From a virus (Duplodnaviria > Caudoviricetes), in IMG/VR virus record IMGVR_UViG_3300028591_000086, positions 64,001-128,000 of that record: a stretch of 64,000 nucleotides of DNA. One strand, written 5' to 3'. Below the pieces are notes generated by a model. That model was not told the DNA's origin, ran no database searches, and worked only from the letters and a program-made list of their open reading frames with translations. The position numbers and the translations under genes were made by a program. How positions within the stretch are numbered: position 1 is the stretch's first letter; the number at the start of each line of letters is the position of its first letter. Below, in pieces: positions 58,481 through 62,155 of the stretch.

Positions 58481-58511
58481 AATAACTCCTGGATAAAATC
58501 CAGGAGTTATT
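58481..58511 (-). terminator. Intrinsic terminator
   Basis: AATAACTCCTGGAT-AAA-ATCCAGGAGTTATT. Confidence 0.85.
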
Positions 58512-58516
58512 AAATA

Positions 58517-60562
58517 TTAAACTGGGGTTTCTCTTCCTAAATTATCTTTAGGAATAATTTTCTTATTATCCATGAACTCTTCACCTTCACCAATCTGTTG
58601 CTTAGGAGAATACTTCCAAGCATTACGATATTCTTCTGGAAGATCAGGAATAGTAAGTTGAGGTTCACCTGTTGGATTATCAGGAGTACGATACTCTGGT
58701 TTTAATTTTCCATCATCACCATATTTATAGAAATTATATATTTCTTTATTTGAACAAATTGATTTATTGTTATCTTTATCAGATACTCTGAAACGAACTT
58801 CATTTACAATATCATTAAAATAATCAAAATGATTATGTTCAAGCTCTTCTACCATATCCCAATATCGTCTAGCCCAAACAGAACGTAATTTGGTTATATA
58901 ACAGATATGTTCAGTTCGTTTAAATTCGTGGAACTCGGAATAACAACCACCGATACAATATGCACAAGCTCCTTCGTATTCACATTCCATACAATACTGT
59001 GATGAAATCTTTTCACGAGTAGCTTCTTTTACTCTGCGGAAATTATCTTTCCAAATAAATCCTTTATCTGCTGTACCTACGCAGAATTCATCAGCATCAG
59101 TAGTCATGGCTTCCATAGTATGTGGTAACCATCTGAAACAAGGATAAATTTTTCCATTTAAACCGATAGAAGGCATAGCACCAGAACCACACCATCCTTT
59201 CTTAATAGAAGATTTAAATTCTTCAACATTATCACTGCGTCTATTTAAACCTTGAGTATCAAACATTGACCAGTACATTTCATGTCGGTGTTCAAATAGA
59301 TACTTAGAACATTTACGATACATTTCATTTAAAAGAACATAATCGTCTTCTTCGCATCCAGTATCTTCCATGATAAAGTTTTGATTAATGTATGTTATTC
59401 CTAATCCTTTCGGATAAGGTTCATGCATAAATTTTAATGATTTATATAACCAAGGAATTGAATTTTTCGAACAAGTAGATTTGGTTTGTTTAACTGCTTC
59501 TGGACTCCTTTCAGCTAACCATGGCCACCATTTCATAATAGTAGACATAGTTCCGAGTTCTTCACCGTTCTTTCCATGCATAGTGAAAATTCGATTAGCA
59601 TCATGGATTTCAGGACATCCATCAATAGATACACCAATATTAAAATTATCACCATATTTTTTAATAATCTCTTGTACTCTAGGATCACCAAACAAAGTAC
59701 CGTTAGAACTGATATTGGCTCTCCATTTATTTTTATACGGATGATCCAATATATTAGCTTTATAGATAAAATAAGACAATGTTTTATCTATAAGATCCGG
59801 TTGCATAAATGAGTCCCCACCAATGAAGTCAATAATAATTCCAGTTTTAGTGATCCAATCATCTTCTGTTCCAGCTGCTCCAATAGGATCAGCATCTTCC
59901 AAAATTCTATCAATGAATTTATAAATTGTGTTTTCATTAATACGAACAGCACGTTTATTCAATTCATAACAGTTATGAACTAATACATCATTTGCGATAA
60001 ATGTTCTTGTACTAGTAGTCATATTATAGAATTCTAATTCAGGACCATTGTCGATAAATTCAATATCTGGGATATAAGCCACAAATTCAGATTCCCAATG
60101 ATAATCTTCCACAGTTTGTTCATTTTGGAGTCTAACAAAAGTATAATATTTCTTACCAAATTCGCCTTTCTTAAAAATATCATATACTTCTGCTGTAGAC
60201 AAGAACGAAAATTGCTTTTCTTCATTATTGAAAATCAACCACGGATGCTCAGCTGAAAGATAAAGATCACGTTTCTTTTCATGGTAATACGATGTTAAGC
60301 TTCTTGTTTTGGTTATATCATAAATTTTACCATCCATTGGCTCACACATTGTATTACCTGTTATTATGAACGCACTTATTTTATCATTCACTGTTAAATC
60401 TTCAATGTTCTTATACTCAGATACTAACTTTCCATCTACTTCAGATATCTTAGTTGTGATTTTAGTACCTTTAGCTATGTCGTATTTACAGCGAAGATTA
60501 CAATCAAAGGTCGTGCAAATCGTTACATTCATACCATCAAATTGTTTACTAGGACGTATCAT
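58517..60562 (-). CDS. Radical SAM/SPASM peptide maturase (CXXX-repeat target family-like), intein-containing
   Basis: CNLRCKY|intein|CY reconstitutes CX3CX2C; DFIGG; SSNGTL; SIDG..EIHDANR; SPASM CGSG, IYPCFR, CxxCxxxxxCxxCxGxC. Confidence 0.88.
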   Translation of the reverse strand: MIRPSKQFDGMNVTICTTFDCNLRCKYDIAKGTKITTKISEVDGKLVSEYKNIEDLTVNDKISAFIITGNTMCEPMDGKIYDITKTRSLTSYYHEKKRDLYLSAEHPWLIFNNEEKQFSFLSTAEVYDIFKKGEFGKKYYTFVRLQNEQTVEDYHWESEFVAYIPDIEFIDNGPELEFYNMTTSTRTFIANDVLVHNCYELNKRAVRINENTIYKFIDRILEDADPIGAAGTEDDWITKTGIIIDFIGGDSFMQPDLIDKTLSYFIYKANILDHPYKNKWRANISSNGTLFGDPRVQEIIKKYGDNFNIGVSIDGCPEIHDANRIFTMHGKNGEELGTMSTIMKWWPWLAERSPEAVKQTKSTCSKNSIPWLYKSLKFMHEPYPKGLGITYINQNFIMEDTGCEEDDYVLLNEMYRKCSKYLFEHRHEMYWSMFDTQGLNRRSDNVEEFKSSIKKGWCGSGAMPSIGLNGKIYPCFRWLPHTMEAMTTDADEFCVGTADKGFIWKDNFRRVKEATREKISSQYCMECEYEGACAYCIGGCYSEFHEFKRTEHICYITKLRSVWARRYWDMVEELEHNHFDYFNDIVNEVRFRVSDKDNNKSICSNKEIYNFYKYGDDGKLKPEYRTPDNPTGEPQLTIPDLPEEYRNAWKYSPKQQIGEGEEFMDNKKIIPKDNLGRETPV
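59972..60481 (-). mobile_element. 170-aa mini-intein without endonuclease, with an atypical Asp at position 1
   Basis: Block A D-IAKGTKI; block B SAEHPW; blocks F/G FYNMTT...FIANDVLVHN followed by Cys+1. Confidence 0.85.
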
Positions 60563-60614: not shown

Positions 60615-60638
60615 AGAAAAACCCCGAAGGGTTTTTCT
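60615..60638 (-). terminator. Intrinsic terminator
   Basis: AGAAAAACCC-CGAA-GGGTTTTTCT, giving a UUCG loop on the minus strand. Confidence 0.85.
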
Positions 60639-60643
60639 AAATC

Positions 60644-62155
60644 CTAGATATCATAAGGCGTTATTCCTTCTCCTTTCATATCTACATATTTATCATTCTT
60701 ATTAATATCATACGGAGTAATACCAGTATTATAATATCTAGGTGCATAGTATAATGATTGAGGATGTCCTGGGTTAATGATACCAAAACACCAATAAGAC
60801 GGATTCATAGGATTATCTTTTCTAAATAATATATTCCAATTAGGATATTTATTATTACAATAATCTATATATTTCTTACAATCATCTTCTTTCCAGAATA
60901 ATACTCCATTAGATAAACCGCATCGGTGTTTTCTTTCATAAAGATCATCCATATATTCTTTTTCTTCGAGAGTAAATTCTTTAGAATTATGATGAAGTTT
61001 ATTATAAGGAAATATCATTTTACCATTATTCCAGAATTGAGGACCTTTCACTTCTACATAATTACCATTAATAATGAAATCAGGTATATAATGACGTACA
61101 TTATTATACATGTCTTTATATTCAAACATATTAGTATTTCTAATAATAGGAATATTATTATCTATACAATATATCCATACAGCTAATTCCCATGAAGAAT
61201 CAAAATATATACCATAATAATTATAATAAAACGATGGATGTAATGTACCGTATTTATTAATTATATCATTTTTCCATTGATCTGAACCTAAATAACTAGA
61301 TCTACCATATTTATTCAAACACGTACTTTTTATCTTTTCCCTAACTTCATAAGTTGAAATGAATGATAATCGACCGTATTTATCCATCATATATTCTTTA
61401 AATTCTGGTGTACCATATTCCATCCAATTACTTTTTCCATATTTTTCAAGATTATTTTGTTTTCTATTTTGCGTAGATTTTTCTTGAACTTCTGGAATCT
61501 GCATGACATTTGAAACACCATATTTTTCAATAATCTTTTCACGCATTTTATCTTTTATCTTATCATTTTGCAAAGCATGTTCAACGCCATATCTCTTTTT
61601 CAAAGTTTCAACAGTTTCATCATAAATCTTTTTACTTTGCAATGCGTATTCTACACCATATTTTTCTTTTGTGGTTTTTCTAGCTTTAGCATTAACCTCA
61701 GGATCTTTAAGCGAACATTTAGAACCGAATTTTTCAAGATTAGTAGATTCTATTTTATCTCTAATTTTTTTATTAGCCATACCGAATCCACCATGTTTTT
61801 CTAAAACCCTATCCAATGCATATCTTTGTTTTTCTTTATTTTCGTACGTATGTGCATAACCATATCGTTCAATATTTAAACAATCTTGACACAGTAAGGT
61901 TTTATGGTTTTCAATATTAGCAGTTCTAAAAGATCTCGTTTGTGTTTTACCACAGGATTTACACTTAAACGTGTATACCATAAGATTAGTGAATACTCTT
62001 TTTTCTCTGATGAATTTTACCTTATCAGGATGATATCTGTCAAAAATACGAGTTATATAAACCGAGTCAAACATATCAGGGTCATCAACTATATAATTTT
62101 CATTATCATCTTTAGGTATATCTATATCATCATATGAATTATAAATTCGTTTCAT
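60644..62155 (-). mobile_element. Free-standing PD-(D/E)xK homing-type endonuclease with Zn ribbon and KYG repeats (paralog of 49615..51168)
   Basis: CKSC...CQDC; about 8 K[YF]G repeats; FDSSWE...YIPDF...VEVKG; early motif at 62179-62187. Confidence 0.78.

What the first reader, a model, noticed from the sequence alone, without database searches (positions are those of the whole stretch)
59972..60481. Mini-intein beginning with Asp, inserted inside the radical SAM CX3CX2C motif
The DNA reads TGT AAA TAC GAC ATA GCT AAA GGT (C-K-Y-D-I-A-K-G), so the intein starts with Asp where canonical inteins have Cys or Ser. It ends VHN, and the Cys+1 is the third [4Fe-4S] ligand, so enzyme activity requires exact splicing. 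Block B has Trp at B12 (SAEHPW), one of the class-3 W-C-T triplet, but block F4 is Asn and G5 is Val. It therefore matches neither class 1 nor a full class 3, and it lacks the Ala1 of KlbA class 2 inteins. Inference: it uses a class-2-like direct attack by Cys+1 or a new mechanism, and splicing could act as an Fe-S/redox-linked switch on maturase activity.
Basis: partly seen in the sequence, partly recalled or inferred. Interest (0 to 1): 0.78.

Follow-up and report, generated by a model that had tools for sequence, protein, structure and literature searches.

The report
Aspartate-first intein splitting radical-SAM motif
A jumbo-phage iron-sulfur (radical SAM) enzyme gene is interrupted, just before its third cluster-binding cysteine, by a real self-splicing protein insert (intein) that starts with aspartate instead of the usual cysteine or serine. 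The aspartate is conserved in a family of related phage inteins, so it probably marks an undescribed way of starting protein splicing, though no splicing was tested.

Summary
Window 59972..60481 (-) encodes a 170-aa HINT-fold insert between CNLRCKY and CYELNK of a 681-aa radical SAM/SPASM gene. It starts with GAC (Asp) and ends His-Asn, and Cys+1 is the third cluster ligand.

Asp1 is not an error. At least 14 distinct same-site inteins from independent metagenome assemblies begin with Asp, encoded by both GAC and GAT. 33 related inteins at the same site begin with Cys.

The intein is under purifying selection (dN/dS 0.09, as low as its host's). One Asp1 member carries a LAGLIDADG nuclease. One sits in a different radical SAM gene, and some Asp1 inteins are more alike than their hosts. 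So the clade has probably stayed splicing-competent and mobile.

- It is not class 1: no N-terminal nucleophile.
- It is not class 3: F:4 is Asn, G:5 is Val, and Trp B:12 is not conserved.
- It is not a KlbA-type class 2 intein: Asp rather than Ala at position 1, His rather than Ser at G:6.

An Ala1 subclade nests inside the Asp1 clade, which favours direct attack by Cys+1 (class-2-like) with Asp1 as a helper. This is inferred, not shown. The Fe-S/redox-switch idea has no support here.

This scan earlier noted a different nucleophile-less (Ala1, Gln-ended) intein family at the same motif on other DNA.

The parts
58517..60562 (-). Precursor gene: 681-aa radical SAM/SPASM peptide-maturase-like protein with the intein in frame. 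It is the only copy in the 195-kb phage record.
   Evidence: ORF list and translation. The C-extein matches TIGR04115 at E 2.7e-48 but below the curated cut-off. The own-genome search finds no second copy.
60482..60562 (-). N-extein, 27 aa, ending CNLRCKY. It holds the first two [4Fe-4S] cysteines (Cys21, Cys25).
   Evidence: G10, C21, N22, L23, C25 and Y27 are invariant across 18 intein-bearing homologues.
59972..60481 (-). 170-aa mini-intein (HINT domain) with no nuclease domain.
   Evidence: AF2 model with mean pLDDT 85.8. The listed Foldseek PDB hits are all inteins, BIL or Hedgehog HINT domains. A profile of the clade hits the NrdJ-1 intein at 5.7e-7. dN/dS is 0.089 against the 93%-identical relative.
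60479..60481 (-). Codon 1 of the intein: GAC = Asp, where Cys, Ser or Thr is expected.
   Evidence: Asp is present in 16 of 16 clade proteins and is encoded by GAC or GAT in 13 DNA sequences.
60458..60481 (-). Block A (DIAKGTKI). Apart from residue 1 it matches the C-[LIV]-x-x-G-T-K-[IV] start of the Cys1 relatives.
   Evidence: Alignments.
60302..60307 (-). Thr59-Arg60. Thr59 is specific to the Asp1/Ala1 clade. Arg60 is invariant in Asp1 members and replaced by Glu in the Ala1 subclade.
   Evidence: Column comparison; sequences.
60236..60259 (-). Block B (LSAEHPWL): Ser76 = B:7, Glu78 = B:9, His79 = B:10, Trp81 = B:12.
   Evidence: His and Pro are invariant. Glu B:9 is present in 16/16 Asp1 members and is Pro in Ala1 members. 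Trp is not conserved.
59990..60031 (-). Block F (FYNMTTSTRTFIAN): Asn153 = F:4, Thr155 = F:6.
   Evidence: Register fixed by the HMMER alignment to the NrdJ-1 intein. F:4 is Asn in all relatives. F:6 is Thr in 15/16 Asp1 members but Glu in 13/20 Cys1 relatives.
59972..59989 (-). Block G (DVLVHN): Val168 = G:5, His169 = G:6, Asn170 = G:7.
   Evidence: V-H-N is invariant in the 18 aligned inteins and V-H-N-C nearly so across the wider same-site set (one Leu at G:5).
59969..59971 (-). Cys+1 (TGT): the splicing nucleophile and the third [4Fe-4S] ligand of the spliced enzyme.
   Evidence: insert-free orthologues.
58520..59971 (-). C-extein, 484 aa: the rest of the radical SAM core plus a SPASM-type Cys-rich domain.
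   Evidence: All cluster cysteines are invariant in intein-bearing homologues.
58481..58511 (-). Terminator-like hairpin directly after the stop codon. A second one at 60615-60638 (-) precedes the gene, so the gene looks like its own transcription unit.

Best explanation
This is a functional mini-intein of a family that homes to the CX3CX2|C motif of radical SAM enzymes. In one lineage the catalytic Cys1 was replaced by Asp. The 681-aa precursor cannot form its SAM-binding [4Fe-4S] site until the insert is removed. Inferred mechanism: the HINT fold places the Tyr(-1)-Asp1 peptide bond next to Cys+1. No linear thioester can form, so the Cys+1 thiol attacks that amide directly (the class 2 route), helped by block B Ser/Thr B:7 and His B:10, and gives the branched thioester. 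Asn170 then cyclises with the help of His169 and releases the intein. An S-to-N shift restores CNLRCKYC. Asp1 is proposed to be a non-covalent helper, acting as a general base for Cys+1 or a general acid for its own leaving amino group. It may take over the role of the active-site carboxylate (Glu at F:6) that the Cys1 relatives have and this clade lost. Shown here: the insert, the fold, the conserved residues, the selection and the mobility. Inferred: that it splices, and every chemical step.
For: 1. Real intein. It has the HINT fold and profile hits to solved inteins. 9 of 13 clade members hit Pfam Intein_splicing and Hom_end_hint.
2. Exact junctions, fixed by insert-free orthologues.
3. Asp1 is conserved in 16/16 clade proteins, with both synonymous codons, over path lengths of 2.4-2.7 changes per site.
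4. Purifying selection. Intein dN/dS is 0.089 against 0.070 for the C-extein. B:10 His, G:6 His, G:7 Asn and Cys+1 are invariant. All host cluster cysteines are kept in intein-bearing genes, and the phage has only this copy.
5. Mobility after Asp1 arose. P0011 is an Asp1 intein with a LAGLIDADG domain. The P0004/P0011 inteins are 78% identical while their hosts are 61% (pN 0.153 vs 0.287). P0124 carries an Asp1 intein 57-62% identical to these in a host only 27-31% identical.
6. No class 3 route via Cys. F:4 is Asn, and P0004's intein has no Cys.
7. Ala1 inteins (P0022, P0032, P0184) are nested in a fully supported Asp1 subclade (100% ultrafast bootstrap; SH-aLRT 100). Residue 1 can therefore lose its side chain, as expected if Cys+1 attacks directly.
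8. Precedent: KlbA class 2 inteins splice this way (PMC4031507).
Against: No splicing assay exists for any member. In every class 1 intein tested, a non-conservative change of residue 1 blocks splicing (PMC3196547). The residues said to activate KlbA include Asp F:4, which is Asn here, and KlbA has Ser at G:6 where this intein has His (PMC4031507). The window's own intein is a long branch with a roughly 10-aa insertion after block A, and on its own it misses Pfam significance. The model's coordinates could not be read, so the position of Asp1 relative to Cys+1, His79, Arg60 and Thr155 is unknown. The co-variations (D1/R60/E78 versus A1/E60/P78) rest on a single branch and may be phylogenetic coincidence. 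The single origin of the clade is only moderately supported (UFBoot 87, SH-aLRT 53).
Confidence: 0.5

Rival explanations
1. Class-3-like route with a hydroxyl nucleophile. An internal Thr that is specific to this clade (Thr155 at F:6, or Thr59) attacks the N-terminal scissile bond first and forms an ester branch, which is then passed to Cys+1.
For: Thr155 (15/16) and Thr59 (16/16) are conserved in Asp1 and Ala1 members but rare in Cys1 relatives (1/20 and 3/28). F:6 lies on the same strand face as the class 3 nucleophile F:4. In gp41-1 the F:6 residue is within 5 A of the terminal Asn (PMC12245125).
Against: Class 3 is defined by Cys F:4 with Trp B:12 and Thr G:5 (PMC2807308), and none of these is conserved here. 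A Thr hydroxyl attacking an unactivated amide from an internal position has no precedent. The Thr residues may only be hydrogen-bond partners of Asp1.
Confidence: 0.1
2. Asp1 is itself the first nucleophile. Its side-chain carboxylate attacks the Tyr(-1) carbonyl through a six-membered ring and gives a mixed anhydride in place of the class 1 thioester. Cys+1 then attacks the anhydride. This would be a fourth splicing chemistry.
For: Asp is strictly kept over deep divergence, whereas a mere space-filler would be expected to vary. Carboxylate-assisted cleavage on the N-terminal side of Asp through a six-membered ring is known peptide chemistry (my own knowledge, not checked here).
Against: A derived Ala1 subclade in intact, conserved host genes shows the side chain can be lost. 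Mixed anhydrides are very high in energy and prone to hydrolysis. There is no precedent in HINT domains.
Confidence: 0.08
3. The insert no longer splices. Either the gene is dead, or the HINT domain is kept as a permanent insertion and the enzyme works with it in place, which is conceivable because intein ends lie close together.
For: Loss of the position-1 nucleophile normally kills splicing, and a decayed nucleophile-less intein is documented (Arth_1007, PMC3196547). Phage accessory genes can decay without killing the phage. Inteins generally diverge faster than their hosts here (for example 41% versus 72%).
Against: [quoted passage not shown] Here both show dN/dS below 0.1. His-Asn, B:10 His and all extein cysteines are invariant. 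The clade includes a nuclease-bearing member and has moved between hosts. A permanent insertion would have no need for the Asn and His that cut the C-terminal junction.
Confidence: 0.15
4. Assembly or sequencing error: the true codon is TGC/TGT.
For: None beyond prior expectation. GAC differs from TGC at two bases.
Against: Thirteen DNA sequences from different projects (ENA, Logan, JGI, NCBI) carry GAC or GAT at this codon.
Confidence: 0.01

Closest known systems
Class 2 inteins (Methanocaldococcus jannaschii KlbA and its archaeal orthologues)
   Same: No Cys/Ser/Thr at position 1, Cys at +1, no WCT triplet, block B Thr/Ser and His kept. The most likely mechanism is the same: direct attack of Cys+1 on the N-terminal amide (PMC4031507).
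   Different: KlbA inteins all have Ala1 and Ser at G:6 and sit in one archaeal host protein (PMC4031507, PMC3196547). This clade has Asp1 (Ala1 only in a derived branch), His at G:6 and Asn at F:4, and it sits in phage radical SAM genes. Its nearest relatives are Cys1 inteins, not KlbA: 2jmz ranks 49th by fold and is absent from the sequence hits. It is therefore an independent origin.
Pyrococcus abyssi MoaA intein (class 1, natural redox trap)
   Same: An intein in a radical SAM enzyme with a cluster cysteine at -3 of the N-extein. Splicing is a precondition for an oxygen-sensitive Fe-S enzyme (PMC3922620, PMC10663303).
   Different: The MoaA trap is a Cys-3/Cys1 disulfide. This intein has no Cys1, so that switch cannot operate. 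Only a Cys-3 or Cys-7 disulfide with Cys+1 could substitute, and that is untested.
Cys1 inteins at the radical SAM CX3CX2|C site, including NCBIfam NF038136 'intein-containing Rv2578c family radical SAM protein'
   Same: Same insertion point and same intein family. 33 representatives from varied radical SAM hosts align along the whole splicing domain, share Asn at F:4 and VHN-C, and many carry LAGLIDADG domains. P0124's intein hits NF038136.
   Different: All of those begin with Cys, and most have Glu at F:6 where the Asp1 clade has Thr.
Class 3 inteins (mycobacteriophage Bethlehem DnaB type)
   Same: Phage-borne and without an N-terminal nucleophile. The window's copy happens to have Trp at B:12.
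   Different: The defining Cys F:4 and Thr G:5 are absent, Trp B:12 is not conserved in the clade, and +1 is Cys rather than Ser/Thr (PMC2807308).
Arthrobacter FB24 Arth_1007 intein (Gly1, decayed pseudogene)
   Same: A nucleophile-less intein that fits no class.
   Different: That one has 52- and 14-residue remnant exteins and is inactive (PMC3196547). Here the exteins are a full-length, conserved enzyme and the intein is under purifying selection.

Membership tests
Intein (HINT splicing domain) | HINT fold | tested here: met
   AF2 mean pLDDT 85.8, pTM 0.83. Foldseek gives 31 PDB matches at E<=1e-3, and the listed matches are inteins, BIL or Hedgehog domains.
Intein (HINT splicing domain) | Sequence similarity to known inteins | tested here: met
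   The clade profile hits the NrdJ-1 intein at 5.7e-7, and also DnaB and PI-SceI inteins. 9/13 members hit PF14890 and PF05203. The window's copy alone scores only E 0.038.
Intein (HINT splicing domain) | In-frame insert at a conserved site, absent from orthologues | tested here: met
   Insert-free orthologues of up to 72% identity read CKYCYE without a break.
Intein (HINT splicing domain) | C-terminal His-Asn followed by a Cys/Ser/Thr at +1; block B (T/S)xxH | tested here: met
   VHN|C and S-A-E-H are present, and these residues are invariant in the clade.
Intein (HINT splicing domain) | Protein splicing activity | not testable with these tools
   Only indirect evidence: selection, host conservation and mobility.
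Class 1 inteins | Cys, Ser or Thr at position 1 | tested here: not met
   GAC = Asp, in 16/16 clade members.
Class 2 (KlbA) inteins | No N-terminal nucleophile, with Cys+1 | tested here: met
Class 2 (KlbA) inteins | Ala1 and Ser at G:6; orthologue of the KlbA intein | tested here: not met
   Asp1 and His169. The host is a phage radical SAM gene. KlbA (2jmz) is only rank 49 by fold and is absent from the sequence hits.
Class 2 (KlbA) inteins | Asp at F:4 assisting Cys+1 | tested here: not met
   F:4 is Asn in all Asp1, Ala1 and Cys1 relatives.
Class 2 (KlbA) inteins | Direct attack of Cys+1 on the N-terminal amide | not testable with these tools
   Needs biochemistry.
Class 3 inteins | Cys at F:4 | tested here: not met
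   Asn153. P0004's intein has no Cys at all.
Class 3 inteins | Trp at B:12 and Thr at G:5 | tested here: not met
   Trp occurs only in the window and P0003, with V/F/I/L elsewhere. G:5 is Val in all members.
Radical SAM/SPASM peptide maturase, CXXX-repeat target family (TIGR04115), host protein | Score above NCBIfam's curated cut-off | tested here: not met
   165 bits (C-extein) and 200 bits (insert-free orthologue P0006) against a cut-off of 350. It is a relative, not a member.
Radical SAM superfamily (host protein) | CX3CX2C motif | tested here: inconclusive
   The motif is present only after removal of the insert (C21, C25, C198). It is intact in orthologues. Pfam Radical_SAM scores 18 bits, below its cut-off of 29.5.

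The most novel reading that the evidence does not exclude
Asp1 is a covalent catalyst. Its carboxylate attacks the preceding carbonyl to make a mixed-anhydride intermediate that replaces the class 1 thioester. That would define a fourth mechanistic class of protein splicing, one that needs no thiol or hydroxyl at the intein's N-terminus.
Probability: 0.08. Interest if true: 0.9.

Novelty: new variant of a known kind. Interest (0 to 1): 0.68.

Why it matters
Reviews state that inteins without an N-terminal nucleophile arose only twice: the Ala1 KlbA orthologues (class 2) and the WCT class 3 lineage (PMC4031507, PMC3196547). They also state that no class 1 intein tolerates a non-conservative residue 1.

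A conserved, mobile Asp1 clade, derived from Cys1 inteins and itself giving rise to Ala1 forms, would be a further independent solution. It offers a natural series (Cys1 to Asp1 to Ala1, in near-identical hosts) for asking how an intein activates an amide for direct attack.

Practically, inteins that need only one cysteine, supplied by the target protein, are useful for protein engineering.

It also raises a question specific to this site. A Cys1 intein at this position recreates CX3CX2C in the precursor. Losing Cys1 may therefore avoid trapping of the catalytic thiol by a disulfide or by an Fe-S cluster. This last point is my inference and is untested.

Tried and rejected
- Searching the 5.8-billion-protein set with the intein alone, in longer proteins, returned only the 93% relative. 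The clade was found through the host protein instead.
- The profile-guided scan of IMG/VR found 13 host relatives, all insert-free. The junction DNA pattern in IMG/VR found only one Cys1 intein.
- The junction pattern in metagenome contigs gave two Asp1 and several Cys1 inteins among chance matches. In GTDB genomes it gave one truncated Asp1 junction.
- Literature searches for 'Asp1' with 'intein' returned only prefix matches such as Asp107. No paper on an Asp-first intein was found.
- The Callahan 2011 paper on MoaA (PMC3087850) is not held, so the MoaA facts come from two reviews.
- The AF2 model's coordinates are not exposed to scripts. No distances between Asp1, Arg60, Glu78, Thr155 and Cys+1 could be measured, and the 'relocated carboxylate' idea stays an inference.
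- A shifted boundary with Cys25 as intein residue 1 was considered and rejected. The product would lack KYC, and the Cys1 relatives align their Cys with the Asp.
- No Gln-ended or other nucleophile-less relatives were found among the 150 best representatives.
Full report
**What is in the window**

Window 58517-60562 (-) is one open frame of 681 codons. It has a Shine-Dalgarno-like AAGGAG upstream and terminator-like hairpins before and after.

Residues 1-27 end in CNLRCKY and residues 198 onward begin CYELNK. Between them lie 170 residues (59972-60481) that start DIAKGTKI and end DVLVHN. The first intein codon is GAC (60479-60481). The codon after the insert is TGT (59969-59971).

Many orthologues lack the insert and read CNLRCKYCYELNK or close variants. 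Both junctions are therefore fixed to the residue. The insert splits the radical SAM CX3CX2C motif before its third cysteine.

**It is an intein**

- An AlphaFold2 model of the insert with five flanking residues on each side, built on 18 relatives, has mean pLDDT 85.8.
- The Foldseek matches listed from the PDB are inteins, bacterial intein-like domains or Hedgehog HINT domains.
- A profile of 13 clade members finds solved inteins by sequence: NrdJ-1 at 5.7e-7, and also DnaB and PI-SceI.
- 9 of the 13 members hit Pfam Intein_splicing and Hom_end_hint. The window's copy alone is marginal (E 0.038).
- The alignment to NrdJ-1 fixes the block F register. Asn153 is F:4 and Thr155 is F:6. Block B is S-A-E-H-P-W (His79 = B:10). 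Block G is V-H-N with Cys at +1.

**The Asp is real and conserved**

The host-protein search returned 15 further proteins with an insert at the same site that begins with Asp. An exhaustive profile search added P0124.

I fetched DNA for ten of them and found three more by a junction pattern. The Asp codon is GAC in six sequences including the window, and GAT in seven. They come from ENA, Logan, JGI and NCBI assemblies. An assembly error is excluded.

I recovered about 278 N-terminal junctions of related inteins. 252 begin with Cys. The Asp1 cases all sit at the radical SAM site.

33 representatives from varied radical SAM hosts carry a Cys1 intein of the same family at exactly this site, many with LAGLIDADG domains. 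NCBIfam even curates an 'intein-containing Rv2578c family radical SAM protein'. The insertion site is therefore ordinary. The Asp is not.

**Evolution**

I built a maximum-likelihood tree of the splicing domains with the residue-1 column left out. Asp1 and Ala1 inteins fall on one side of a branch against the Cys1 inteins (UFBoot 87, SH-aLRT 53; 84% of bootstrap trees). This needs the minimum of two state changes.

Two Ala1 inteins (P0022, P0032) nest inside a fully supported Asp1 subclade (100% ultrafast bootstrap; SH-aLRT 100). A third Ala1 fragment (P0184) shares their motifs. The likely order is Cys1, then Asp1, then Ala1. The last step is a single base change.

**Evidence that the clade still splices (indirect)**

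- Between the window and its 93%-identical relative, the intein has 29.5 synonymous and 13.5 non-synonymous differences. That gives dN/dS 0.089, against 0.070 for the C-extein.
- His B:10, Pro, Asn F:4, Thr F:7, V-H-N and Cys+1 are invariant or nearly so.
- In 18 intein-bearing hosts, every radical SAM and SPASM cysteine is invariant.
- The phage has no second copy of the enzyme and no other intein.
- P0011 is an Asp1 intein with a LAGLIDADG nuclease domain. Its splicing domain is 78% identical to that of the mini-intein P0004, while the hosts are 61% identical (pN 0.153 vs 0.287).
- P0124 carries an Asp1 intein 57-62% identical to these in a PapB-like radical SAM host that is only 27-31% identical.

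So Asp1 inteins moved between alleles and between genes after Asp1 arose. That is hard to reconcile with a dead element. A documented dead nucleophile-less intein shows decay of both intein and exteins (PMC3196547), which is the opposite of what is seen here.

**Which class**

- Class 1 is excluded because there is no nucleophile at position 1.
- Class 3 is defined by Trp B:12, Cys F:4 and Thr G:5 (PMC2807308). Here F:4 is Asn and G:5 is Val throughout. Trp B:12 occurs only in the window's lineage, and one Asp1 intein (P0004) has no cysteine at all.
- Class 2 is described as consisting only of KlbA orthologues, all with Ala1 and Ser at G:6 (PMC4031507, PMC3196547). This clade has Asp1, His at G:6 and Asn at F:4, and it is related to Cys1 inteins rather than to KlbA.

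It is not a member of any class as defined, but it most plausibly works like class 2.

**Mechanism (inferred)**

With no conserved internal Cys, and with a viable Ala1 descendant, the simplest route is direct attack of Cys+1 on the Tyr(-1)-Asp1 amide. Asn170 cyclisation and an S-to-N shift would follow.

Several columns distinguish the Asp1 clade from its Cys1 relatives: Asp1, Thr59, Tyr66, Thr96 and Thr155 at F:6.

- Cys1 relatives mostly have Glu at F:6. In gp41-1 this position lies within 5 A of the terminal Asn (PMC12245125). The clade lost that carboxylate and gained one at position 1.
- The Ala1 subclade lost Asp1 and changed Arg60 to Glu and Glu78 (B:9) to Pro.

I read this as an active-site carboxylate that has changed address, with Asp1 acting as a general acid or base. 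This rests on one or two branches of the tree. It could not be checked against model coordinates, which are not exposed.

The rivals I consider are an internal Thr nucleophile (class-3-like), Asp1 as a covalent nucleophile via a mixed anhydride, and a non-splicing insert.

**Redox or Fe-S switch**

The known precedent is the P. abyssi MoaA intein, where a Cys-3/Cys1 disulfide blocks splicing under oxidising conditions (PMC3922620, PMC10663303). Without Cys1 that trap cannot exist here.

A Cys1 intein at this site recreates CX3CX2C in the precursor. Replacing Cys1 may therefore relieve trapping of the catalytic thiol. This is my speculation. Nothing in the data shows any regulatory role.

**Host and context**

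The host is a radical SAM/SPASM peptide-maturase relative. Its best match is TIGR04115, at 165-200 bits against a cut-off of 350. The window lies in a 195-kb IMG/VR phage record.

Relatives come from gut, fermentation and environmental metagenomes, including a 199.6-kb NCBI contig. One truncated Asp1 junction lies on a 2.9-kb contig binned with a Treponema MAG.

**Earlier notes of this scan**

A follow-up on other DNA (e1-5345815) described an Ala1, Gln-ended intein family at the same cysteine and called it a second class-2-like lineage. I found no Gln-ended or similar member among my closest 150 representatives. It is probably a separate lineage, which would make loss of the N-terminal nucleophile recurrent at this site.

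**Verdict**

The intein is real, and Asp1 is real and selected. The clade is a new variant of nucleophile-less intein, and I found no description of it in the searchable literature. The mechanism remains an inference, and only a splicing assay with the listed mutants can settle it.

Noticed in passing
window 60644-62155 (-): The 503-aa gene directly upstream of the intein-bearing gene matches Pfam DUF7487 (E 4.9e-30, three stretches). A DUF7487 gene is also the upstream neighbour of the Asp1-intein host P0016 on a pig-gut contig (L065). It may be a conserved partner or a free-standing mobility gene.
   Followed up: partly
P0032 and P0037 (homologues, no window coordinates): These hosts carry a second, canonical Cys1 intein inside the SPASM-domain C-x-x-C motif, ending LVHN|C or LCHN|C, in addition to the Ala1 intein at the first motif.
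   Followed up: no
P0022/P0032 versus P0184; L068:382-387: Ala1 variants differ at residue 2: Ala-Cys (GCG TGC in L068) or Ala-Val. Their hosts are 82% identical to an Asp1 host, but the inteins are only 51% identical. This points to fast change after Asp was lost.
   Followed up: partly
L039:870-4130 (+): A 1086-aa radical SAM ORF with a nuclease-bearing Cys1 intein at the CX3CX2|C site and a second VHN|C junction near residue 975. It probably has two inteins in one gene.
   Followed up: no
P0123 (1285 aa) and P0144 (5631 aa): The best-scoring representative has seven separate stretches matching the intein profile, and another has ten. These may be multi-intein or HINT-repeat proteins.
   Followed up: no
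P0232 around residue 856: The sequence LLVHN-KG-GFPAGTKILMGD looks like one HINT domain ending, followed two residues later by another that starts with Gly and has no nucleophile at +1. It may be a tandem or BIL-like arrangement.
   Followed up: no
window 60425-60457 (-), intein residues 9-19: The window's intein and its 93% relative have an extra stretch of about 10 residues (TTKISEVDGK) after block A. It is modelled as an added beta-hairpin and is absent from all other clade members.
   Followed up: no
L081:29-69 (-): An Asp1 junction (CNLRCRY|DLPKGTKILMADL, codon GAT) runs off the end of a 2.9-kb contig binned as a Treponema sp. MAG. It could be phage DNA in the bin or a prophage.
   Followed up: no
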